From: Candidatus Multivorans sp.
GTDB taxonomy: Bacteria; Acidobacteriota; Thermoanaerobaculia; Multivoradales; Multivoraceae
Assembly: GCA_965224025.1 (NCBI GenBank)
Contig: OZ245033.1
Span: forward strand, 2,624,001 to 2,688,000
Reading direction: 5' to 3'
Length of the DNA stretch: 64,000 nt
The notes beneath the pieces are model-generated. The model was given only the letters and a program-made list of their open reading frames with translations. It did not search any database and had not been told where the DNA came from. Both the position numbers and the translations under genes were made by a program. This document shows positions 422 to 62,920 of this stretch, in pieces (positions within the stretch are counted from its first letter, which is position 1; every line of letters begins with the position of its first letter).

Positions 422-3400
422 ACTCCCACCTCCAGGAAGCGATCCAGGCCCTTGCGGCCATGGACATCGAGGACGCCGAAGATCCGCGTCAGACCCTGGC
501 GCTGGCCCAGCGCGACATCCTGCGCGAGTTTGCGCCGGCGTACATGCGGTGGCTCGACGCACACGCGGAGGCGGAGGAGGGTCTGTTCCCGGTCGAGGAG
601 GAATCGGCCGACGAGCAGCGCGCACGGATGTGGGTACTCCGGCCGAAGCCGGACGAGGACATGCGCCGCTGGCTGCGCTTCCTGCGTTACCGGGAGCTGA
701 TCCGGGTCGCCGTCTCGGACTTCAGCGGCCTCGACGACTTCGACACGACGACGGCGAAGATCTCCCAGGTCGCGGATGTCTGCGTGCAGCGCGCGCTCGA
801 GGCGACGGGACTCGATCGGGAGCCGTTCGCGGTCATCGCGATGGGCAAGTGGGGCGGTCTGGAGGTCAACTACAGCTCGGACATCGACGCGATCTTCGTG
901 GCCTCGGACGATGTCGACCAGGAGGCCCTGCACCGTCTTCAGCGGCTGGCGCCGAAACTGATCCGGCTGATCTCCGACAACACGGCGGACGGGTTCGTGT
1001 TCCGCGTCGACATGCGTCTGCGTCCCGAGGGGAAGATGGGCCCCCTGGTGCGCACGGTGGGGCAGTACCTCCGCTTCTACGAGCGCTACGGGATGACCTG
1101 GACCTTCCAGGCGCTGATCAAGGCGCGGTTCGCCGGCGGCGACGCGGCGGCGGCCAAGAGCCTGATCGACGGAACGCGGCGCTTCGTCTTCAATCCGGAG
1201 AGGCCGCCCGAGACACTGTTGCGCGAAGTCTTCGAGATGAAGCAGATGATCGAGAAGTCGCTCCGTTCCCGCGGCACGGACATCGGCAACGTGAAGCTCG
1301 GCGCCGGCAGCATCCGCGACATCGAGTTCATCGTCCAGTTGCTTCAGCTTTACCAAGGCGCCGCCAACCGCGGTCTCCGCTCAGCCAACACGCTGCGGGC
1401 GATGGCGCGGCTCCGGTCGCACCGCGTCATCACGGATGACGAGCACGACGAGTTGCACGAGGCATACGTCTTCTTGCGGGTGGTGGAACACGTGCTCCAG
1501 TTGGAGCGGGATCTCCCCGTGCGCCAACTGCCGCAGGATCCGAAACAGTGGGCGACGTTCCAGTGGCGCGTGGCCTTCGCCCTGCGCCAGCCGCTGGACA
1601 CGCTCGATCTCGGCCCTCGCTACGAGGAGACGGCGGCCACGGTGCGCCGCATCTTCGGCGAGTTCTTCGAGGAGACGATCGAACTCCTCGAGCGCAAGCA
1701 GCAGGTCCGCGAGCTGTGCCCGGACCTGCCTGCCGAGGTCGTCGACGAGCACTTCAGGCGGCTGGAGAGAGGCTACTTCCTGAGCTTCGCGGTCGAGGAC
1801 GTGGCGCGCCACCTGGAGATGATCCAGGAACTCGATGCCGATCGGCTGTGCCGGGTCGATGTGCGCTGCGTCGGCTCGACCCGGCGGGTGACCGTGGTCG
1901 CAAACGACTACCAGGGTGAGTTCGCCAAGATCTGCGGACTGCTCGCGGCCTACGGCCAGTCGATCCTGAGCGGCAGTTCCTACACCTACCAGGATGTCGG
2001 CGACGTCGGACTCTACCGGCGGCCCCGGCGAACTCGGCGGCGCCTGCCCGAGCGGTCCCAGGACCGGCGCCGGCGGCGCAGGACTCCGCCGCCGCCGCGA
2101 AGAAAGCAAGGCCCGACGCGGATCGTGTACTCGGCCGATGTGCAACCGGCGCCGGAACGGTCGACTGAGGTGTTTTCCTGGACCGAGTTCGAGCGGGACC
2201 TGAACCGGTTGCTGGCGCTCCTGGAGAAGGGCGATGCGCGCCGCGCCAACGAGGAACTGACCCTGCGGGTCATGGAGGCGGCGCGGCGGATGGACCTCGG
2301 CGCCGAGGCGGACCGGGTCCTGCCGCCGATTGCCATCTCGGTCGACAACGAGTCGGACGAGAACTGCACGATTCTCGAGATTCGAAGCCCGGACAGCTTC
2401 ATGTTCCTGTTCGAGTTCGCCACCGTCCTCTCGACCCGGGACTACTGGATCGACAAGGTCGAGTTCGACACGGTGGACGGCGAGGTGCGCGACCGCCTGT
2501 TCGTGACCACCCGGCGCGGCGGGAAGATCGAAGATCGGGTCGCCGTCGACAATCTGCGTCTCACGGTGACCCTGATGAAGCAGTTCGCGCACCGGCTGGC
2601 GGTGGCGCCGAACCCGCACCTGGCTCTGCGCCAGTTCGGGGCGCTGATCGACGCCGCGTGCGAACAGGTTGCCGATCCGACCCAGGCGCTGGCGTCGTCG
2701 CTGGACGAACTGGCGCGGGTCCTTGGGGCCGGCACCTACCTCTGGGAGGAGTTCCTGCGCCGGCAACACGAGAACCTGATGCCGCTGCTCGCCAACATGG
2801 CCGACCTCGACTTCGGCGCCGACAGAGGAGAGCTGGAGCGCCGGCTGGACGCGGCGCTCGAAGGCCAGGACAAGCCGGACGACGTTCTCAACCGATTCAA
2901 GGACGACGAGATCGGACGCATCGACATGCGCCACCTGACGCGCAGGATCGAGCGCTTCAGCGACTTCGGCGCCGAACTCTCGACCCTCTCCGACGTGGTG
3001 CTCACGCGGGGCGCCGAGGAGGCGGTGGCCGAGGTCGCGGCCGGCGGACCGGCGCCCGGAGCGTGGTCTCTGTGCGCGCTCGGCAAGTGGGGCGGACGCG
3101 ATCTCGGCTACGCCTCGGACATCGAGCTCATGTTCGTCTGGGATGCCGAAGGGTCGGAGCAGGGCCGGGCCGGGGAACTCTACGAGCGCGCGGCGATGCG
3201 CTTGGCGCGCCTGATCCGCGCCAAACGGGACGGGATCTTCGAGCTGGACTGGCGTCTGCGCCCCGGCGGTTCGTCCTCGCCGCTATCGGCGTCGTTCCAG
3301 CGGTTCTCCTCGTACTACAGCTTTGACGGTGACGCCGACCCCTACGAACGTCAGGCGCTGGTTCGGCTCCGCGCGGTTGCGGGCGATCCGGCGCTGTGCG

Positions 3401-54648: not shown

Positions 54649-55904
54649 GGGGCCGTTCCTTCCTTCCCGTCTCCCAGACACACGGGAAGCGCAAGCAGGA
54701 AGAGCGCCCAGCGCTGGATCTCCGTATCGCGCCAGTTCGCCTCGAACAGGCCCGCGACGTTGAGGGCCAGCAGAGCGAAGAGAACACCCAGATAGAGGTC
54801 CGCGCGGGGTCCGGCTCGCCCTCCCTCGCCGCGGTAGCGCTCGATCGCCGGAGCCGCCGCCGCGCCCATCAGCCACAGGTAGCAAAGCAGCGAAGGGATG
54901 CCGCGACTTGCGGCCATGTGGACGAACGTGTTGTGCAAGTGCTTCACGCGCGCCCGCACGGAGGTCGGATGACGGTAGACCGGGTACCACTCGCGGACCA
55001 TGGCCGGGCCGATGCCTGTGAGCGGCCGGTCCGCGATCATCCGGCCGCCGGCCCACAGCATGCAGAGCCGGTCGTAGTTCGAGGGGTTGCGGACGTCGAC
55101 CACGGACGTGGCGCGTTGCCAGTAGGTCGGCCAGAAGGTGGGCGCCACCGCGGCCAGCGAAACGGCCGCCAGCACCAGGGCGGCGGCGTAGCCCACGAGG
55201 ACCCGGCGACGCTGCAGAGTGAAGGCGGCGGTGGCGACGGCGAAGGCGCCGAGCCAGGCGCTGCGGGTGAGGGTCAAGACGAGCGTTCCGCCGACAATGG
55301 CCAGCACGAGCCAGTTCACCTGCCGGCGCCAACCGTGGCTGCTGGAGACACGCCCGGCGATCAACGCCAGACCGAGCAGGAGCACGCCGGAGAAGGTCAT
55401 GTAGTGCGAGAACGGCCCCGGGATCCGCTGGTGCAGGGGTCCGTAGTCGGTGAAGACGAACTGCGTCAGGCCGTAGACGGCCAGGACCGCCGAGATACCG
55501 ATGACCGCGGCGATCACAACCCTCACCTGCCGTTCGCCCCGGACCAGCAGGAGCGCCAGTGGCAGGGTGAGGACGGAGTAGAGCTGGGAGAGTTCCTGGA
55601 GACTCGTCCCCGGCGCGTAGGAAAGGACCGCCGAGAGGACAAAGCAACCGGTATAGGCGGCCAGGGGGTAGAGGAGCCGCCGCCGTCGCCGGCGATCCTG
55701 GTCGCCGGCTGTGAAGAACAGTCGTCGGCGACTGAACGCGCTCCAGACCAGCGTAAAGAACAGCAGGATGTTCGAGAGCGCGATCCCGAAGGTGGTCACG
55801 AGCTGGCCCAGGAAGAGCCAGAAGCCCGCGTTTCCCCTGGCTTCGCGGCAGGGCCGGGGCACGGCGCGCTCGATCGCCCCCATCGGCCCCTGCGTCCGCT
55901 GCAT
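54645..55904 (-). CDS. O-antigen ligase family (Wzy_C) membrane protein
   Basis: Multiple TM helices, TLTRSAW, PLTGIGP and HLHN. The start is ATG 55904 or 55883; the ORF-track start lies inside the IS. Confidence 0.85.
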   Translation of the reverse strand: MQRTQGPMGAIERAVPRPCREARGNAGFWLFLGQLVTTFGIALSNILLFFTLVWSAFSRRRLFFTAGDQDRRRRRRLLYPLAAYTGCFVLSAVLSYAPGTSLQELSQLYSVLTLPLALLLVRGERQVRVVIAAVIGISAVLAVYGLTQFVFTDYGPLHQRIPGPFSHYMTFSGVLLLGLALIAGRVSSSHGWRRQVNWLVLAIVGGTLVLTLTRSAWLGAFAVATAAFTLQRRRVLVGYAAALVLAAVSLAAVAPTFWPTYWQRATSVVDVRNPSNYDRLCMLWAGGRMIADRPLTGIGPAMVREWYPVYRHPTSVRARVKHLHNTFVHMAASRGIPSLLCYLWLMGAAAAPAIERYRGEGGRAGPRADLYLGVLFALLALNVAGLFEANWRDTEIQRWALFLLALPVCLGDGKEGTAP

Positions 55905-55991
55905 GGCGGTCAGTCTATGCGGGTCCGGCTCACTGGGACTCTCCACCCTTTAGCAAGTGTGTTTTGGGGAGGCTGCTGCGGGTCAGGGAGG

Positions 55992-57245
55992 TCATGCGAC
56001 CTGGGCATGGCATCGCTTGTTGGGGTCGAAGAGAGTTCGGTCTCGGAGCATGGCGCAGGCGACGCCGAGGAGTCGGTCGACGAGTTGTCTGATGGCGCGT
56101 CCGTGCGTCTTGCCTTCGGCTTTCATGGCGTCGTACTTGGCGCGGCTGATCGGGTCGTGCTGGATGGCGACTCGTCCCCAGTGATAGACGGCGTCGCTGA
56201 GGTGTTCGTTGGCGGCGAGTCGTCGCATGACGATGAGCTTCTTGCCGGACTTGACGGTCACCGGCGCCACTCCGCAGAGGCAACGCAGTGCCTCGTGGTC
56301 TCTGCGGCCCAGGCTTTGATCGGCCTCGGAGAGCAGGGTGGCGAGGCCGACCTTGCCGAGTCCGGGCAGCGACCTGAGGATGGCGGCGTCGCTCGGCTTA
56401 GGGGAGTCGTCGTCGTTTTCCCGTTGGGCCGGGGCCTCGAGTGCGCGGGTCATCCGCTCCAGCCGCTTGTCGGCGTCGGCGAGTTGGCGGCAGACGGTGT
56501 CGAGCACCGGCCGGAGGAGTCCTATGTGTTCGACGGCGGCCTTAACGGTGTCCGGGGAAACGGCGATCGGCTCGGCCCGCAGTTGATCGCGCAGTTGGGC
56601 GGAGGTCAGGCGCCGGATGCGGTGTTCCTTGAGCAGTTTGGCGAGCGTGGCTTCGCGCAGCCGTCGAGCCTTGCCGGGGGTCGGCGCCAGTCGCCACAAG
56701 GCCAGCGCGAAGGGCGCCGACACCTCGTTCTTGACCACGGCGAGAAACTGCGGGTAGTAGCGCCAGAGCTGGTCGCGGACCTGGTTCTCCAGGCGGTTCT
56801 TCTGGCCGACCAACTGCTTGCGGCCGCGGGACACCTCGCGCAGCATGACGATGGCGGCATCGGATGGTTGCACGCGGTTCAGGCACTCGGGGTCGGTGCG
56901 AAGCGCGGCGGCGAGCACCCGTGCATCGCGGCGGTCATCCTTGGCGCCGGCGACGGAGAAGCGGTCCCTGAAGCGGTCGAGCTGCTTGGGGTTGATCGAA
57001 TGGACGGCGAAACCCCGCTCCAGGAGAGTCTCGACCACCGGTCCGTGCGGCACCTCGATGGCGACGCCGATCTCGTCCGGAGACGTCGGTCGGGTATGTC
57101 CAAGGAGCCAGTCGGCCATGGCGGCAAGTCCCTTGCCGCTGTGGTCGAACGCCCGCTCCCCCCTCACCTTGCCGTCCCGATCCAGCACACACACGTGGTG
57201 GGTCTCGGACCCCCAGTCCACGCCGGCGAACCACGTCCTGGTCAT
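55992..57245 (-). CDS. IS110 family recombinase/transposase
   Basis: GVDWGS, AIE, KDDRRD (DEDD) and GVAPVTVKSG (catalytic Ser); GGAGG RBS. Confidence 0.96.
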   Translation of the reverse strand: MTRTWFAGVDWGSETHHVCVLDRDGKVRGERAFDHSGKGLAAMADWLLGHTRPTSPDEIGVAIEVPHGPVVETLLERGFAVHSINPKQLDRFRDRFSVAGAKDDRRDARVLAAALRTDPECLNRVQPSDAAIVMLREVSRGRKQLVGQKNRLENQVRDQLWRYYPQFLAVVKNEVSAPFALALWRLAPTPGKARRLREATLAKLLKEHRIRRLTSAQLRDQLRAEPIAVSPDTVKAAVEHIGLLRPVLDTVCRQLADADKRLERMTRALEAPAQRENDDDSPKPSDAAILRSLPGLGKVGLATLLSEADQSLGRRDHEALRCLCGVAPVTVKSGKKLIVMRRLAANEHLSDAVYHWGRVAIQHDPISRAKYDAMKAEGKTHGRAIRQLVDRLLGVACAMLRDRTLFDPNKRCHAQVA

Positions 57246-57279
57246 CTCGTCCTCCTTCTCCCTTGCGGTAGTGTTGCCT

Positions 57280-57436
57280 GGTCGGCATGCCGCGTTGCCT
57301 GCCCGTACCTGTACTGGTGCTCTAAGGCACTGACTCTCCACTGGGCGTCCAACGCGGCGAAGCAGCCAGGGCACGGGTCCCAGCCAGGTGCTCGAAGCAC
57401 AGTGCGCCGGTGGTCGCTCCTGGCTGCTTGCCGACC
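57280..57436 (-). ncRNA. Predicted bridge RNA core of IS110-A (target- and donor-binding loops)
   Basis: Nested stems 57280-87/57429-36, 57289-97/57350-58 and 57361-70/57419-28. Loop segments match the target and donor junctions. Confidence 0.85.
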
Positions 57437-57647
57437 TTCCTTCAGTGACTCCGGCAGGCCGGAAACGCAACCGACCGGCGGTCTCGGCTGCGGAAGCTGC
57501 CGGTCCGGCGGAAAACGGCAGACCGTTTCCCGCCGGACCTTGGAAAACCGGCAAGCCGGTTTCCCACAGCTACCGCAGCCACGACGGCTACTGGTCGATT
57601 CCACCTCTCTCAACGACCCACCAGAATCCACCCGAGAAAGGTACAGG

Positions 57648-57760
57648 TGCGCCGGCGTGCCATCCGTGCGCCCGATGACGGACGCACGGACTGGTTCACG
57701 GGTGGCGCGGATCGCGCCACCCGTGTTCTGGCCGGCATCCGCCGCAAGGCGGAATCCGGC
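57648..57760 (+). repeat. Dispersed repeat (copy 4) interrupted by IS110-A
   Basis: TGCGCCGGCGTGCCATCCGTGCGCCC...CACGGGTGGCGCGGATCGCGCCACCCGTG...GCCGGCATCC. Confidence 0.9.
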
Positions 57761-57777
57761 TGGGCTCCGAAGGCGGC

Positions 57778-60378
57778 CTACCGTCCCCGGCTCCGCACGC
57801 CCGTTGCCACGAGCCCCGGACGCAGCACTTCGACCCGGATGTCCCTGAGCCCATCCGGGCCGGCCGCCGCGACCGACGGCGGTTCGAAGGCGATCAGGTA
57901 CTGCGAACGAAGAGCGCGCGCAATCTCGCGGTAGATGCGGTCCAGGTCGTCCACCGATTCGGCGGCGTGGTACTGGCCTCCGGTGCGGTCGGCAAGCTTC
58001 CGCAGCGCATCGATCGTCGCCGGGTCGCCTACGCGCAGCGCGATCGGGTAGGTCGCAACGCCGGCCAGCTCGACCTGGGCGAGCACGCGCTCGAAGTCGA
58101 GGTTGCTGTCGGTGTCCGCGCCGTCGCTCAGGATGACGAGAGCCCGCCGGTCCGGCCGTCCGGCGAACGAGGAGACCGCGTAGGCGATGCCGTCGTAGAG
58201 CCGGGTCGCGCCCCAGGCGCGCAGCCCCTCGGCGGCGTAGCGAAGCTGCCGGGCGTCGCCGACAAAGGGCGTCAGCCGTTCGAGATCGTGGTTGAAGACG
58301 AGGAGGCTGGCGGCGTCGCGCTCGGTCAGGACCCGTTCGAAGAAGCGCTGCGCGCTCGTAGCCGCGACCCGTACGCTGCGTCCCAGGGAGCTGGAGACGT
58401 CCATCAGCAGGGCAACGTTCAGCGGCCGGTCCGCGAGGCTGCGGAAGTCATGGACCGGCGCCTCGATGCCCTGGTGAAGAACCCGAAAGTCCCCCGGTCC
58501 GAGGTCCGTCGCCGGGCCGGTCTGCCGGCCGCCGACGGAGACGAGGATGTCGACCAGGCGCACATCGATCTGCTCAGGCGCCCCGGCGCCCAGGAATGCG
58601 AGATCCTCGACCTGCTCGCCGGAGCGGAGCGTGGCCGCGGCGCGAACGAAGCTGAGGGGTAGCCGCAGCCCGGCCGGAACCCGGCAACGGAAGGGTGGCG
58701 CGGTCATCCGCTCGAGCAGGTCCGCGCCCAGGAAGCAATCGACGTGCTCGAGTTCGCGTCCGGACGGCACGTCGACGCGGACGGCCAGGTCGAGCGCCTG
58801 GTCGAGGCGTGCCGGGTCGGGAGGTTCAAGCGCGATCGCGAACGGGCGCTCCTCCCGTTCGACGTCGAGGCCGTGCCGGGCCACGAGCCGCCCCACGCGG
58901 TCAAGGCCACGGAGTTCGATCCGGTGACGCTGCTCCGGCAGATCGATGGCGTGAACGAAGGGCGGCTCGCTGACCGTGGCCACGTTCTCGCCGTCGCGCC
59001 GGAAGACGACCTCGGCGATGCCGGGGCTGGCTGTGGCGCGGGCGGTGAACGTGGCGCCCAGCACCCGGCCGTCCGGCGCCAGAAGTTCGACGCTCGGCAA
59101 CTGGTTCAGGACGATCGTCTCCCGCCGGGTCAGCAGGTGGAGCCCCGGCACGTCGGGCGGTGTGGAAAGCGCCGGCACGTCGACCGTGTTGCTGCTGTGG
59201 AGCAGCCCGCGCCCCAGGCCGTCCTCGGCGCGGAGTTCGAAGCGGTAGGCGCCGGGAGGCAGGCGACGGTAGAAGTCGAGCGCGATGCCCGGCGAACGGT
59301 CACCGGTGTCCGTCGCGTCGACTGGAATGCCGCCGCTGATGTGGTGCGTGACGACGAAGGCGTCGGCGAGCCGGTTGCCGAGGAAGACATCGCCCGTGAT
59401 CGTCACCCGGTCGAGGATCTGGCCGGCGCCGAGTTCGGCGAGATGCTCGGGAGGCAGCCGCAGCCGGCCGCGCATCGCGGTGCGGCGGTTCTCGCTGCCG
59501 AGGGCCTCGAACTCCAGCGAAACACCTGGCATTGCCATGGCAGCGGGATCGAGGACGGCCTCCACGCGCAGGAAGTCGTCGACCCAGCTCGAGGTCCGGT
59601 CTTCGGCCCCGGTCGGTTTCCCTATCCAACCGAGCCGCTCGACGAACCGTCGCCAACCTGCCGCGCGTTCGAGCCGTCGCTGCAACCGGGCGCGTTCGTT
59701 CGCGGTCAGGCAGCGGCGGCGTTCCGCCTGTTCCAGTATCCGGGGCGCGCCGACTCGCGGGGGAGGAGTGGCGTCGTCACTCGGGCTGTCCGAAGCTTTG
59801 GGGGCGAAAGCGAGATCCACGCCGGATTCCGGCGACCACACTCGCATCGATCGGGGGTCGAAGTTCACTTGCTGGACGAACGCGAGCAGGAGTTCGCCCT
59901 CGCCCCGTGGCGGCGGCCGGCCGAGTTGGTGTTCGAGTTGCCATCCGTACCAGGTCCAGATCTCAATCCGGCGCAGGGTCGATTCGCACGGCTCGACCAT
60001 CTGCCGGTCAGCCGGCTTGCCGGCCAGCAGCACGGCGCGCTCCATTGCCGGCGACCGCTCGCGGAGCTGGTCGCGGGCTCGCCGGTTTGCTTGCCAGCGT
60101 TCGAGCAGGCGCGGCGGACGCGCCGCCCAGAAGGCGCGCAGGAAGCGCTCGCGCGCGCCCGGGCCTTCGAGTTGTTCGAAGGCCCGGCGCTCGCGGTCGG
60201 TGAGCAGCGGTTCGACCTCGGCGAACCACTGGGTGTAGAAGTCGGGCAGCCGGGCTTGCGGGCGGCGACTGCCCTGGGCCTCCGTGGGGAGGGCTGCCGA
60301 GAGCAGCACCGTCGCGGCGAACAACGTCGCAGCCGCGATTGGCGGCGCTCCAGCGGCGAGCGCGGGCGACGCGGCCAC
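57778..60378 (-). CDS. VWA domain protein with N-terminal GWxTD-like region (Acidobacteria-type)
   Basis: W...V.PLLT..E...F...RERFLRAFW, MIDAS-like DVSSS, GATRLYD, LSDGAD and LRSQY. Start uncertain. Confidence 0.85.
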   Translation of the reverse strand: MAASPALAAGAPPIAAATLFAATVLLSAALPTEAQGSRRPQARLPDFYTQWFAEVEPLLTDRERRAFEQLEGPGARERFLRAFWAARPPRLLERWQANRRARDQLRERSPAMERAVLLAGKPADRQMVEPCESTLRRIEIWTWYGWQLEHQLGRPPPRGEGELLLAFVQQVNFDPRSMRVWSPESGVDLAFAPKASDSPSDDATPPPRVGAPRILEQAERRRCLTANERARLQRRLERAAGWRRFVERLGWIGKPTGAEDRTSSWVDDFLRVEAVLDPAAMAMPGVSLEFEALGSENRRTAMRGRLRLPPEHLAELGAGQILDRVTITGDVFLGNRLADAFVVTHHISGGIPVDATDTGDRSPGIALDFYRRLPPGAYRFELRAEDGLGRGLLHSSNTVDVPALSTPPDVPGLHLLTRRETIVLNQLPSVELLAPDGRVLGATFTARATASPGIAEVVFRRDGENVATVSEPPFVHAIDLPEQRHRIELRGLDRVGRLVARHGLDVEREERPFAIALEPPDPARLDQALDLAVRVDVPSGRELEHVDCFLGADLLERMTAPPFRCRVPAGLRLPLSFVRAAATLRSGEQVEDLAFLGAGAPEQIDVRLVDILVSVGGRQTGPATDLGPGDFRVLHQGIEAPVHDFRSLADRPLNVALLMDVSSSLGRSVRVAATSAQRFFERVLTERDAASLLVFNHDLERLTPFVGDARQLRYAAEGLRAWGATRLYDGIAYAVSSFAGRPDRRALVILSDGADTDSNLDFERVLAQVELAGVATYPIALRVGDPATIDALRKLADRTGGQYHAAESVDDLDRIYREIARALRSQYLIAFEPPSVAAAGPDGLRDIRVEVLRPGLVATGVRSRGR

Positions 60379-61600: not shown

Positions 61601-62920
61601 ATGGCAAAGCGGAAGGCGGAGCGTCTGGAAGTCGTTCACCCGGATTGCGCCGGTGTGGACGTAGGCAAGCGCAAGCACTACGTGGCGGTGGCCCCGTCGC
61701 GTTTCGAGCGGCCGGTGCGCAATTTCTCGTCGTTCACGGAGGACCTCGAGGCGATGGCCTCGTGGCTTCAGGAGTGCGGCGTGCGTGAGGTGGCGCTGGA
61801 GTCGACGGGGGTGTACTGGATTCCGGTGTTCGAGGTGCTGGACCGGGCGGGGTTCGAGGTGCATCTGGTGAATCCTCGGGCGACCAAGCAGGTGAGTGGC
61901 CGCAAGAGTGACGTTCTGGACTGCCAGTGGATCCGGCAGTTGATGAGCTACGGGCTCCTGCGCGGTGCGTTTCGCGCGCCGGACGAGTTGTGTCCGCTGC
62001 GTTCGTACACGCGGCAGCGCGCCCAGTTGGTCCGCGACCGCAGCCGCGCGGTGCAGCACATCCAGAAGGCTCTGGTGCAGATGAACGTGCAGTTGGACAA
62101 CGTGCTGAGCGACATCATGGGCAAGACCGGCCAGTTGATCGTGCGCGCGATCGTCGCCGGCGAGCGCGACGGCGCGGCGCTGGCCCGTCACCGGGACGGT
62201 CGCTGCAAGGCTGGTCCGGCTGTGATCGCGGCGAGTTTGCAAGGCAACTGGCGAGACGAGCACCTGTTCGCTCTGGGCCAGGCGCTGGCCCGCTACGACA
62301 TGCTGCAAGGCCAGATCGAGATGTGCGAGAAGCGCATCGACGCCGAGCTCGACGGTCTGGCCCAAGACGGCGTCGAGGACGCGCCGCCGCCCGGTTCGAA
62401 GGCGCGCGAGCGCGCCCTGCGGAAGCGGCTGCATCGCATGCTCGGCGTGGACCTGGTCGCCATTCCGACGGTCGGCGTCGAAACCGCGCTGACCTTCGCC
62501 GCTGAGATCGGCCCGGACCTGTCCCGGTTTCCCTCGCAGGGCAACTTCTGCTCGTGGCTGTGTCTGGCTCCACCGACCAACATCAGCGGCGACAAACGGC
62601 TGAACGGCCCTCCCGTGAAGCAGACCAACCGGGTCGGCCAGGCGCTGCGCCAAGCCGCCACCACAGCCCGCAACAGCAAGACCGCCATCGGAGCCTCTCA
62701 CCGCCGGCGTCTCCAGCACATGGAGAAGGCGAAGGCCATCAAGGCCACCGCTCATCAACTCGGCCGACTGATCTACGCCATGCTGACCCACGGCGAAGAG
62801 TACGTCGAGCGCGACCTCGCCGAAATGGAGGCCGTCCGACGCGAACGACAAATCAGAAACCTGCAGCGTCAGGCCCGCCGCCTGAATCTGGCTCTCGTGC
62901 CGACCGAACATGCCGCCTGA
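61601..62920 (+). CDS. IS110 family recombinase/transposase
   Basis: GVDVGK, ALESTGVYW, RKSDVLD and LAPPTNISG; GGGAGG RBS. Confidence 0.96.
   Translation: MAKRKAERLEVVHPDCAGVDVGKRKHYVAVAPSRFERPVRNFSSFTEDLEAMASWLQECGVREVALESTGVYWIPVFEVLDRAGFEVHLVNPRATKQVSGRKSDVLDCQWIRQLMSYGLLRGAFRAPDELCPLRSYTRQRAQLVRDRSRAVQHIQKALVQMNVQLDNVLSDIMGKTGQLIVRAIVAGERDGAALARHRDGRCKAGPAVIAASLQGNWRDEHLFALGQALARYDMLQGQIEMCEKRIDAELDGLAQDGVEDAPPPGSKARERALRKRLHRMLGVDLVAIPTVGVETALTFAAEIGPDLSRFPSQGNFCSWLCLAPPTNISGDKRLNGPPVKQTNRVGQALRQAATTARNSKTAIGASHRRRLQHMEKAKAIKATAHQLGRLIYAMLTHGEEYVERDLAEMEAVRRERQIRNLQRQARRLNLALVPTEHAA

What the first reader, a model, noticed from the sequence alone, without database searches (positions are those of the whole stretch)
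57280..57436. IS110-A bridge RNA readable from sequence, with all four guides
On the + strand, the target loop has GTGCGCCGG (57402-10), identical to the flank at 57647-55, and CCCAG (57379-83), the reverse complement of the other flank CTGGG (55933-37). They are separated by hairpin GTGC-TCGAA-GCAC. The donor loop has GACTCTCCAC (57332-41), identical to the IS end at 55937-46, and CCTGTAC (57308-14), the reverse complement of the other end GTACAGG (57641-47), separated by GTGC-TCTAAG-GCAC. Both arms are closed by an 8-bp stem into a multi-way junction. In RNA sense the order is LTG-RTG-LDG-RDG as in IS621, but the core is CC rather than CT. This is a ready-to-test programmable recombinase.
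Basis: partly seen in the sequence, partly recalled or inferred. Interest (0 to 1): 0.85.

Follow-up and report, generated by a model that had tools for sequence, protein, structure and literature searches.

The report
Bridge RNA of an IS110 element
This is a real bridge RNA gene inside a jumping-gene copy: a folded RNA that reads both the element's own ends and its chromosomal landing site, of a kind known since 2024, so it is a well-supported new example and not a new mechanism.

Summary
All eight sequence matches sit at the stated coordinates. None of 200,000 dinucleotide shuffles of the 157-nt stretch holds all four guide matches.

The stretch lies in the 402-nt left end of an IS110-group insertion sequence on the minus strand. 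The element is 1,710 bp counting one core copy. Its 417-aa transposase has both Pfam domains and all five catalytic residues. The genome holds 12 full-length copies at 97-100% identity, all in the same REP-like site. 44 empty sites read CCGGCG[C/T]A-CC-CAG, which fixes a CC core.

In 80 orthologous loci from other genomes, the RNA helices carry compensatory changes. The target-loop guides change together with the flanks in eight distinct target families (1 of 40,320 permutations). The donor guides change with the element ends. Handshake guides are also present and covary.

No RNA data exist, so expression and activity are inferred.

This is a new member of a known kind. Its minor variants are a CC core, only partial pairing of the two left guides (LTG and LDG) with the second core base, and a stem that closes the two loops into a three-way junction. 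Interest is moderate to low.

The parts
55936..57647 (-). IS110-group insertion sequence with a CC core copy at each junction (57646-57647 and 55936-55937). The element is 1,710 bp counting one core.
   Evidence: 12 full-length copies at 97-100% identity. Junctions are identical in all 12. 44 empty sites carry a single CC.
55992..57245 (-). Transposase / bridge recombinase gene, 417 aa, ATG at 57245
   Evidence: PF01548 E = 1e-33 and PF02371 E = 1.3e-12. NF033542 'IS110 family RNA-guided transposase' scores 175.6 bits against a cut-off of 140. D10, E64, D104, D107 and S333-G334 align with IS621 D11, E60, D102, D105 and S241-G242.
57280..57436 (-). Predicted bridge RNA, 157 nt, closed by stem P1
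   Evidence: Fold. Hand-drawn structure on alignment A1: 41 pairs, 90.6% of cells paired against 30-42% when slid, 14 pairs with compensatory changes.
57429..57436 (-). P1, 5' arm (GGUCGGCA). Pairs with 57280-57287.
   Evidence: This is helix 1, with 72.5% of cells paired and 3 compensatory pairs, so it is the weakest helix.
57280..57287 (-). P1, 3' arm (UGCCGACC)
57361..57428 (-). Target-binding loop module: stem 57419-57428 pairing with 57361-57370, enclosing LTG, inner hairpin, RTG and handshake guide
   Evidence: Helix 2: 98.8% of cells paired, 6 compensatory pairs.
57402..57410 (-). LTG, CCGGCGCAC. Identical to the top strand of the left target plus the first core C. The next base (57401, U) lies opposite the second core base.
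57388..57400 (-). Inner hairpin of the target loop (GUGC-UUCGA-GCAC)
   Evidence: helix 3
57379..57385 (-). RTG, GGCUGGG. CUGGG pairs with top-strand CC-CAG. C57384 pairs with G and G57385 forms a G-T wobble at this site (a G-C pair at CAGC sites).
57377..57378 (-). Target-loop handshake guide, AC. Complementary to donor positions 6-7 (GT) and not to the cognate target (CA).
   Evidence: Concept taken from PMC11208158 (passages).
57289..57358 (-). Donor-binding loop module: stem 57350-57358 pairing with 57289-57297, plus a short inner helix GCCC/GGGC
   Evidence: Helices 4 and 5
57332..57341 (-). LDG, GUGGAGAGUC. Identical to the right end of the element plus the first core C. The next base (57331, A) mismatches the second core base.
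   Evidence: Positions 5-6 of LDG (AG, GA or GG) change together with the right end across orthologs.
57317..57330 (-). Inner hairpin of the donor loop (GUGC-CUUAGA-GCAC)
   Evidence: helix 6, one compensatory pair
57308..57314 (-). RDG, GUACAGG. Complementary to CC-TGTAC at the left end.
   Evidence: A compensatory change is seen in a Labrenzia plasmid relative: RDG GAACAGG with left end CCTGTTC.
57306..57307 (-). Donor-loop handshake guide, UA. The U pairs with target position 7 (A).
   Evidence: The first base pairs with target position 7 in 8 of 8 distinct combinations (U:A, G:C, C:G, G:T).
57648..57656 (-). Left target (GCCGGCGCA), the 3' flank of a REP-like element
55931..55935 (-). Right target (CAGTG)
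55951..55956 (-). -35-like TTGCTA in the right end. After circularisation it would lie 17 nt upstream of TACCTT (57638-57643) in the left end.
   Evidence: TTGnnA, 17 nt, TACnnT (TACC in 17 of 18, TACATT in L086) in 18 of 18 orthologs examined. Inferred promoter, not shown.
57470..57593 (-). Small repeat nested in the left end, between the tip of the element and the bridge RNA
   Evidence: The same ~120 nt occurs alone at 4 or more other loci at 86% identity. Three copies of the element lack about positions 64-138 of the left end.

Best explanation
The stretch 57436-57280 on the minus strand encodes the bridge RNA of an IS110-group insertion sequence.

**Layout.** The RNA lies in the 5' leader of the transposase transcript and folds into two internal-loop modules joined at a three-way junction.

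**Target loop.** It pairs with both strands of a REP-like chromosomal site, GCCGGCGCA-CC-CAG. LTG reads the bottom strand and RTG the top strand.

**Donor loop.** It pairs in the same way with the joined ends of the excised circular element, GTGGAGAGT-CC-TGTAC.

**Reaction.** The DEDD/serine recombinase, as a tetramer, exchanges strands at the shared CC core. Two handshake dinucleotides 3' of RTG and RDG pair with the incoming strand after the first exchange.

**Shown here:**
- the sequence matches
- the fold with covariation
- guide-to-target and guide-to-end covariation across orthologs
- 12 copies in one kind of site
- intact catalytic residues

**Inferred from the IS621 literature:**
- that the RNA is made and bound
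- the circular intermediate
- a promoter formed at the circle junction
- the chemistry of strand exchange
For: 1. **Family.** PF01548 and PF02371 both match. NF033542 'IS110 family RNA-guided transposase' scores above its cut-off. D10, E64, D104, D107 and S333-G334 align to the IS621 catalytic residues.

2. **Guides in this copy.** All four are present at the stated coordinates. 0 of 200,000 shuffles hold all four.

3. **Copies in the genome.** There are 12 of 12 full-length copies with left flank GCCGGCG[C/T]A. The right flank starts CCAG in 11 and CCGG in 1.

4. **Empty sites.** 44 empty sites read CCGGCG[CT]ACCCAG. 28 of 44 empty and 13 of 17 occupied sites lie just 3' of a perfect hairpin of 6 bp or more, against 50 of 2,000 random positions.

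5. **Conservation.** The RNA region is found by blastn in 79 of 80 orthologous loci whose transposases are 56-93% identical.

6. **Structure.**
- 41 pairs, 90.6% of cells paired against 30-42% when slid.
- 14 pairs with changes on both sides.
- 0 of 500 shuffles reach the observed covariation score.
- RNAalifold on its own finds 12 of 35 pairs compensatory.
- G-U pairs such as columns 11/175 and 22/90 would be A-C mismatches on the other strand, so the minus strand is the RNA sense.

7. **Target covariation.** For 8 distinct target families, each RNA scores best on its own site. The diagonal sums to 95 of 104, and only 1 of 40,320 permutations reaches it. Over 58 distinct sites, cognate pairs average 7.14 of 8 (left) and 3.97 of 5 (right). 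The 1,160 non-cognate pairs average 4.72 and 1.85.

8. **Donor covariation.** LDG positions 5-6 (AG, GA or GG) equal the right end in every class. RDG GAACAGG goes with left end CCTGTTC in a Labrenzia plasmid relative.

9. **Handshake guides.** The first base of the donor-loop guide pairs with target position 7 in 8 of 8 distinct combinations, using three Watson-Crick pair types. The target-loop guide AC or AU pairs with donor GT.

10. **Junction promoter.** A -35-like and a -10-like hexamer stand 17 nt apart across the joined ends in 18 of 18 orthologs examined.
Against: - No RNA evidence could be had.
- The sigma-70 scan finds 0 promoter-like sites in the integrated copy. The junction promoter is only a motif: the -10-like hexamer matches 3 of 6 consensus positions and overlaps the right-donor sequence, which is conserved for other reasons.
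- 211 nt separate the tip of the element from the RNA, and they hold a nested repeat. Vicinamibacterales orthologs have about 45 nt there.
- LTG and LDG do not form a Watson-Crick pair with the second core base in this copy: U and A respectively. In IS621 all four guides include the core (PMC11208160, passage).
- The right-target match at this copy's own site is only 5 Watson-Crick pairs plus a wobble.
- No circle or tandem junction of this element is present in the assembly (0 hits).
- In 3 of the 76 loci where both ends were located (L088, L105, L106), the right flank does not match RTG.
- P1 is the least supported helix, with 72.5% of cells paired.
Confidence: 0.93

Rival explanations
1. 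The element and its RNA gene are real but no longer active in this genome. Under this reading they are recently dead copies, or copies silenced because the RNA is poorly expressed from integrated copies.
For: No promoter-like site is found in the integrated copy. No circle junction is in the assembly. A 124-nt repeat is nested in the left end. In IS621 the bridge RNA is weakly expressed from chromosomal loci (PMC13626964, abstract read).
Against: - There are 12 full-length copies at 97-100% identity, at 12 different sites.
- 10 of the 16 protein matches cover all 417 residues and none of the 16 has an internal stop.
- The RNA sequence is identical in 7 copies.
- Guide variants are matched to variants of the REP-like target.
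- A contig of a relative lacks the element at this locus.
Confidence: 0.15
2. The matches are DNA-level features. Internal copies of the ends and of the target would serve as transposase-binding or decoy sites, and no RNA would be involved.
Against: - The helices around the guides keep pairing through 14 compensatory changes, which is a constraint on a single-stranded fold.
- G-U pairs are tolerated on the minus strand only.
- One guide of each pair is identical to its DNA partner and the other is complementary. This is what RNA pairing to the two DNA strands predicts and not what repeated protein-binding sites predict.
- The family is experimentally RNA-guided (PMC11208160, PMC11208158, PMC11187229; passages read).
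Confidence: 0.02
3. The structured leader is mainly a cis-regulatory 5' UTR of the transposase mRNA that controls translation or stability, and the guide matches are incidental.
For: The RNA ends 34 nt upstream of the ATG, just ahead of a GGAGAAGGAGG ribosome-binding site. A regulatory role could coexist with guiding.
Against: An incidental origin cannot explain guides that change with the flanks in 8 target families. It also cannot explain the handshake covariation.
Confidence: 0.03

Closest known systems
IS621 bridge RNA and recombinase of Escherichia coli (PMC11208160, PMC11208158; PDB 8WT6)
   Same: - The RNA lies in the left end, upstream of a DEDD plus Tnp recombinase.
- There are two modules, each built stem, left guide, stem loop, right guide.
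- The left guides equal the top strand (9-10 nt) and the right guides complement it (5-7 nt).
- A dinucleotide core is shared by target and donor.
- Handshake dinucleotides lie 3' of RTG and RDG.
- The target is REP-like.
- The catalytic residues align.
   Different: - The proteins are only distantly related by sequence (phmmer E = 3.6e-11; two aligned stretches, query residues 6-130 and 262-410). This one is 417 aa against IS621's 326 numbered residues (PMC11208158; the PDB chain is 328 aa), with the extra length between the two aligned stretches.
- The core is CC, not CT.
- LTG and LDG do not form a Watson-Crick pair with the second core base.
- The two modules are 2 nt apart and closed by a stem P1 into a three-way junction. 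IS621 has a 5' stem loop and an 11-nt linker (nucleotides 99-109), according to the passage read.
- The left end is longer (402 nt) and holds a nested repeat.
ISCro4 / IS622 bridge recombinase (preprint 10.1101/2025.05.14.653916; PDB 9T56)
   Same: Same family. The Tnp domain aligns at E = 2.6e-9. It recognises 14 nt with handshake guides.
   Different: It has a CT core and is an enterobacterial element. It has been shown to be active in human cells, whereas nothing has been tested for the present element.
ISPpu10 of Pseudomonas putida (preprint 10.64898/2026.03.19.712850, abstract read)
   Same: The target is a repeated intergenic sequence with a GC-rich stem loop just 5' of the base-paired part. 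Here a 7-bp GCCGGC[C/G] hairpin precedes the core, and its 3' arm is part of the left target.
   Different: Whether the hairpin itself is read here is untested. The elements were not compared directly.
ISEc21 seekRNA, IS110 type (PMC11187229, passages read)
   Same: The non-coding region upstream of the transposase gene gives a short RNA that matches both strands of the target.
   Different: It is a different element with a different nomenclature. No sequence comparison was made here.

Membership tests
IS110 family insertion sequence, IS110 group | Transposase with an N-terminal DEDD (RuvC-like) domain and a C-terminal Tnp domain | tested here: met
   PF01548 E = 1e-33 over residues 7-165. PF02371 E = 1.3e-12 over residues 288-371. 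NF033542 scores 175.6 bits against a cut-off of 140.
IS110 family insertion sequence, IS110 group | Catalytic D, E, D, D and Ser-Gly present | tested here: met
   D10, E64, D104, D107 and S333-G334 align to IS621 D11, E60, D102, D105 and S241-G242. This uses the phmmer alignment (the PDB chain is offset by 2) and the residues read.
IS110 family insertion sequence, IS110 group | No terminal inverted repeats, and no target duplication beyond a short core shared by element and target | tested here: met
   The ends are CC-TGTACC... and ...GGAGAGT-CC in 12 of 12 copies. Empty sites hold one CC.
IS110 family insertion sequence, IS110 group | Long left non-coding end that carries the RNA, and a short right end (the reverse holds in the IS1111 group) | tested here: met
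   The left end is 402 nt and the right end 54 nt. The RNA lies at 57280-57436, upstream of the gene.
IS110 family insertion sequence, IS110 group | Site-specific insertion, often into REP-like repeats | tested here: met
IS110 family insertion sequence, IS110 group | Circular intermediate with a promoter formed at the joined ends | tested here: inconclusive
   The motif TTGnnA, 17 nt, TACnnT spans the joined ends in 18 of 18 orthologs. No junction is present in the assembly, and there are no reads that could show a circle.
Bridge RNA (IS621 type) | Two internal-loop modules, each stem, guide, stem loop, guide | tested here: met
Bridge RNA (IS621 type) | [quoted passage not shown] | tested here: met
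   12 of 12 copies agree. Covariation over 8 target families.
Bridge RNA (IS621 type) | LDG and RDG pair in the same way with the joined ends of the element | tested here: met
   A compensatory RDG and left-end change is seen in L118.
Bridge RNA (IS621 type) | [quoted passage not shown] | tested here: inconclusive
   RTG and RDG end in GG and read both core bases. LTG reads C and then U (a possible wobble). LDG reads C and then A (a mismatch). Across the 18 guide classes, the LTG side reads CC in 13, CU in 3 and CG in 2.
Bridge RNA (IS621 type) | Handshake guides 3' of RTG and RDG that pair with the non-cognate DNA at positions 6-7 | tested here: met
Bridge RNA (IS621 type) | The RNA is expressed and bound by the recombinase, and is needed for recombination | not testable with these tools
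   No listed run is on record as RNA.
Bridge RNA (IS621 type) | CT core (a feature of IS621 and close relatives, not of the whole family) | tested here: not met
   The core is CC. It is CC in all 76 orthologous loci where both ends were located.
Bridge RNA (IS621 type) | 5' stem loop ahead of the target loop | not tested
   The 211 nt upstream of P1 fold into several hairpins, but part of it is a nested repeat. No alignment-based test was made.

The most novel reading that the evidence does not exclude
This element represents a natural CC-core clade of bridge recombinases, found in Acidobacteriota and in alphaproteobacterial plasmids. Three properties would set it apart from IS621:
- The second core base need not be read by the two left guides.
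- The target and donor loops are held 2 nt apart in one three-way junction. A single RNA molecule might then bridge both DNAs, where IS621 uses two molecules.
- Single-base guide variants (LTG C or U) retarget copies between REP subtypes within one genome.

If so, it would widen the range of programmable cores and offer a different RNA geometry for engineering.
Probability: 0.15. Interest if true: 0.55.

Novelty: new member of a known kind. Interest (0 to 1): 0.3.

Why it matters
The finding shows that a bridge RNA, with all four guides and its handshake dinucleotides, can be read directly from raw sequence of an uncultured bacterium. It then passes every comparative test that can be run.

For the field it adds a natural CC-core system with many orthologs that carry different natural targets. 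Such a set is a ready-made panel for studying core preference and guide rules.

It does not change what is known about the mechanism. It leaves expression and activity untested.

Tried and rejected
**Rfam.** No family matched the RNA. The two weak hits, mir-4660 (E = 0.66) and Cgb105 (E = 0.2), lie in the nested repeat and are far below their gathering scores.

**Sigma-70 and terminator scan.** 0 promoter-like sites. 2 terminator-like sites on the other strand, about the number expected by chance.

**Sequencing runs.** No RNA holder is listed, so nothing can be said on expression.

**Contigs of four runs laid on 55500-58100.** The pieces break inside the repeat. One contig of a relative (about 92% alike) joins 55930 to 57814 with 21 other letters between. 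That genome therefore lacks both the element and the adjacent REP-like stretch at this locus. It is not a precise empty site, and I use it only as a weak sign that the insertion is not ancestral.

**Circle or tandem junctions of this element in the genome.** 0 hits.

**Literature on a CC core.**
- A search for 'bridge RNA' together with 'CC core' gave 0 papers.
- The passages I read name CT for IS621 and IS622, and AG (CT on the other strand) for ISPpu9.
They may well list CC-core elements, so I do not claim that the core is unreported.

**Direct comparison with the IS621 RNA sequence.** I did not attempt it, because I held no IS621 DNA from a tool.

**The LTG C/U association** (Fisher p = 0.0076). 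It pools copies from three genomes. The RNAs can act in trans, so I treat it as suggestive only.

**Rows dropped.**
- Alignment A1 used the window plus 20 of the 28 distinct upstream sequences. L040, L068, L082, L084, L087 and L097 were left out as near-duplicates of included rows. L074 and L108 were left out because their 5' part is replaced.
- The guide parser handled 87 of 92 loci. It failed on L074, L082, L089, L093 and L108.
- Both ends were located in 76 of those 87.

Full report
**1. The observation**

On the + strand:
- 57402-57410 equals 57647-57655.
- 57379-57383 is the reverse complement of 55933-55937.
- 57332-57341 equals 55937-55946.
- 57308-57314 is the reverse complement of 57641-57647.

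Each pair of guides flanks a 4-bp hairpin (57388-57400 and 57317-57330). Positions 57429-57436 pair with 57280-57287.

RNAfold of the minus strand gives a three-way junction at -85.1 kcal/mol, z = -3.75. The plus strand folds about as well, as expected for mostly G-C helices.

In 200,000 dinucleotide-preserving shuffles of the 157 nt:
- the 9-mer occurs 1,019 times
- the 5-mer 52,583 times
- the 10-mer 54 times
- the 7-mer 3,707 times
- all four together never

**2. What surrounds it**

The stretch lies upstream of a 417-aa gene on the minus strand (57245-55992).
- The protein has the DEDD_Tnp_IS110 and Transposase_20 domains.
- It scores above the cut-off of NCBIfam NF033542, 'IS110 family RNA-guided transposase'.
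- It aligns to the solved IS621 and ISCro4 recombinases. D10, E64, D104, D107 and S333-G334 fall on the IS621 catalytic residues.

Rfam has no family for the RNA.

The genome (5.14 Mb) holds 12 full-length copies at 97-100% identity plus fragments. Of the 16 protein matches, 10 cover all 417 residues, and none of the 16 contains a stop.

All 12 copies have the same junctions: gccggcg[c/t]a | CCTGTACC ... GGAGAGTC | c(a/g)g.

The uninterrupted site CCGGCG[CT]ACCCAG occurs 44 times, mostly at the 3' foot of a REP-like 7-bp hairpin. The one-base-shorter version occurs 12 times, in unrelated contexts.

The target is therefore GCCGGCGCA-CC-CAG and the donor GTGGAGAGT-CC-TGTAC. The core is CC, and the element is 1,710 bp counting one core.

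**3. Comparative test of the RNA**

A scan of one genome per species returned 80 loci whose transposases are 56-93% identical. They come from:
- Candidatus Multivorans and other Thermoanaerobaculia
- Vicinamibacterales
- an Azospirillum
- a few others

The RNA region is recognisable by blastn in 79 of the 80.

I aligned the window with 20 of the 28 distinct upstream sequences (A1).
- RNAalifold finds 35 pairs, 12 of them with compensatory changes.
- For my hand-drawn structure of 41 pairs, 90.6% of cells pair, against 30-42% when the partners are slid by 1-3 columns.
- 14 pairs change on both sides, and 0 of 500 shuffles reach the observed covariation score.
- P1 is the weakest helix, with 72.5% of cells paired.
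- G-U pairs in several helices fit the minus strand only.

**4. Comparative test of the guides**

A parser located the guide segments in 87 of 92 loci and both ends of the element in 76.

*Target loop.* It differs widely between clades and follows the flanks. Examples:
- GGGGUCCC and GAAAAGG go with ggggtc-CC-ttttc.
- GUGAUAGCCC and GACAAGG go with gtgatagc-CC-ttgtc.
- GUGGACGC and GGGGAGG go with gtggacg-CC-tcccc.

For eight distinct target families, each RNA scores best on its own site. Only the identity permutation, out of 40,320, reaches the diagonal sum. Over 58 distinct sites, cognate scores average 7.14 of 8 and 3.97 of 5. Non-cognate pairs, which include related classes, average 4.72 and 1.85.

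Three loci are exceptions on the right side: L088, L105 and L106.

*Donor loop.* It is more conserved but still covaries.
- LDG positions 5-6 are AG, GA or GG, exactly as in the right end of the same element.
- A Labrenzia plasmid relative has RDG GAACAGG with left end CCTGTTC.
- A degraded copy on the Sinorhizobium fredii NGR234 plasmid has the same architecture and the same CC core.

**5. Handshake guides**

In IS621, the two bases 3' of RTG and RDG pair with positions 6-7 of the other DNA after the first strand exchange (PMC11208158, passages).
- Here the target loop has AC, which is complementary to donor GT and not to target CA.
- The donor loop has UA, whose U pairs with target A7.
- Across orthologs, the first donor-loop handshake base is U, G or C where target position 7 is A, C (or T, as a wobble) or G. 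That holds in 8 of 8 distinct combinations.

**6. Differences from IS621**

- The core is CC in every locus examined.
- RTG and RDG read both core bases. LTG and LDG read the first, and then carry U and A in this copy. Across the 18 guide classes the LTG side reads CC in 13, CU in 3 and CG in 2.
- The two modules are 2 nt apart and closed by P1. IS621 has a 5' stem loop and an 11-nt linker, and takes its two loops from two RNA molecules (PMC11208158, passages).
- The left end is 402 nt here, against about 235-240 nt in the Vicinamibacterales orthologs.
- Part of the excess is a ~120-nt repeat. It also occurs alone elsewhere in the genome and is missing from three copies of the element.

**7. 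Expression**

No RNA run holds the sequence. The integrated copy has no sigma-70-like site.

Joined at the core, the right end supplies TTGCTA and the left end TACCTT, 17 nt apart. The same arrangement (TTGnnA and TACnnT) is kept in 18 of 18 orthologs, although the sequence upstream of TTG varies. This fits the junction promoter described for IS621 (PMC11208160, passage), but it is only a motif.

**8. Natural guide variation**

Copies with LTG ...GCGCAC sit at ...gcgca sites in 24 of 25 cases. Copies with ...GCGUAC sit at ...gcgta sites in 4 of 8 (Fisher p = 0.0076). A U can pair with both A and G, so this is what base pairing predicts. The RNAs can act in trans and the copies come from three genomes, so I treat it as suggestive.

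**9. Verdict**

Bridge RNAs were described in 2024 and predicted in 85.7% of catalogued IS110-group elements (PMC11208160, passage). This is therefore a new member of a known kind, with minor variants. Expression, binding and recombination remain to be shown.

Noticed in passing
window about 61649-62083, + strand: A second, different IS110-family transposase gene lies in the window (PF01548, 92.5 bits). It has about 16 copies in the genome. I did not examine whether it carries its own bridge RNA.
   Followed up: no
window 57470-57593 (left end of the element): A ~120-nt structured repeat is nested between the tip of the element and the bridge RNA. It occurs alone at 4 or more other loci at about 86% identity. 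Three copies of the element lack about positions 64-138 of the left end.
   Followed up: partly
G000 C1:4322373-4322573 (locus L017): An orphan 201-nt fragment, 97% identical to left-end positions 160-360, holds nearly the whole bridge RNA. LTG and LDG are intact, and RDG carries one change. It sits between unique genes with no transposase nearby.
   Followed up: partly
L088 about 3086-3101 and L106 about 2909-2924: In two orthologs the right end is followed by CC-TGTAC and then unrelated sequence. The right flank therefore resembles the right donor and not the right target. This may be an insertion at a donor-like or half-matching site.
   Followed up: partly
window 57648-57813: This REP-like stretch next to the element has very high summed contig depth in four metagenome runs. 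It is absent, together with the element, from a relative's contig that joins 55930 to 57814.
   Followed up: partly
G000 C1, + strand, left junction about 550080: One left junction has the same target and the same first 22 nt of the left end (CCTGTACCTTTCTCGG...), but then continues with different sequence. This may be a rearranged or related element.
   Followed up: no
L117 (Sinorhizobium fredii NGR234 plasmid pNGR234a, 165186-166398): A relative at 54% identity has a transposase annotated in two pieces. It keeps the same bridge-RNA architecture and the CC core. Its RTG GGGGGGG matches the right flank CC-ccccc.
   Followed up: partly
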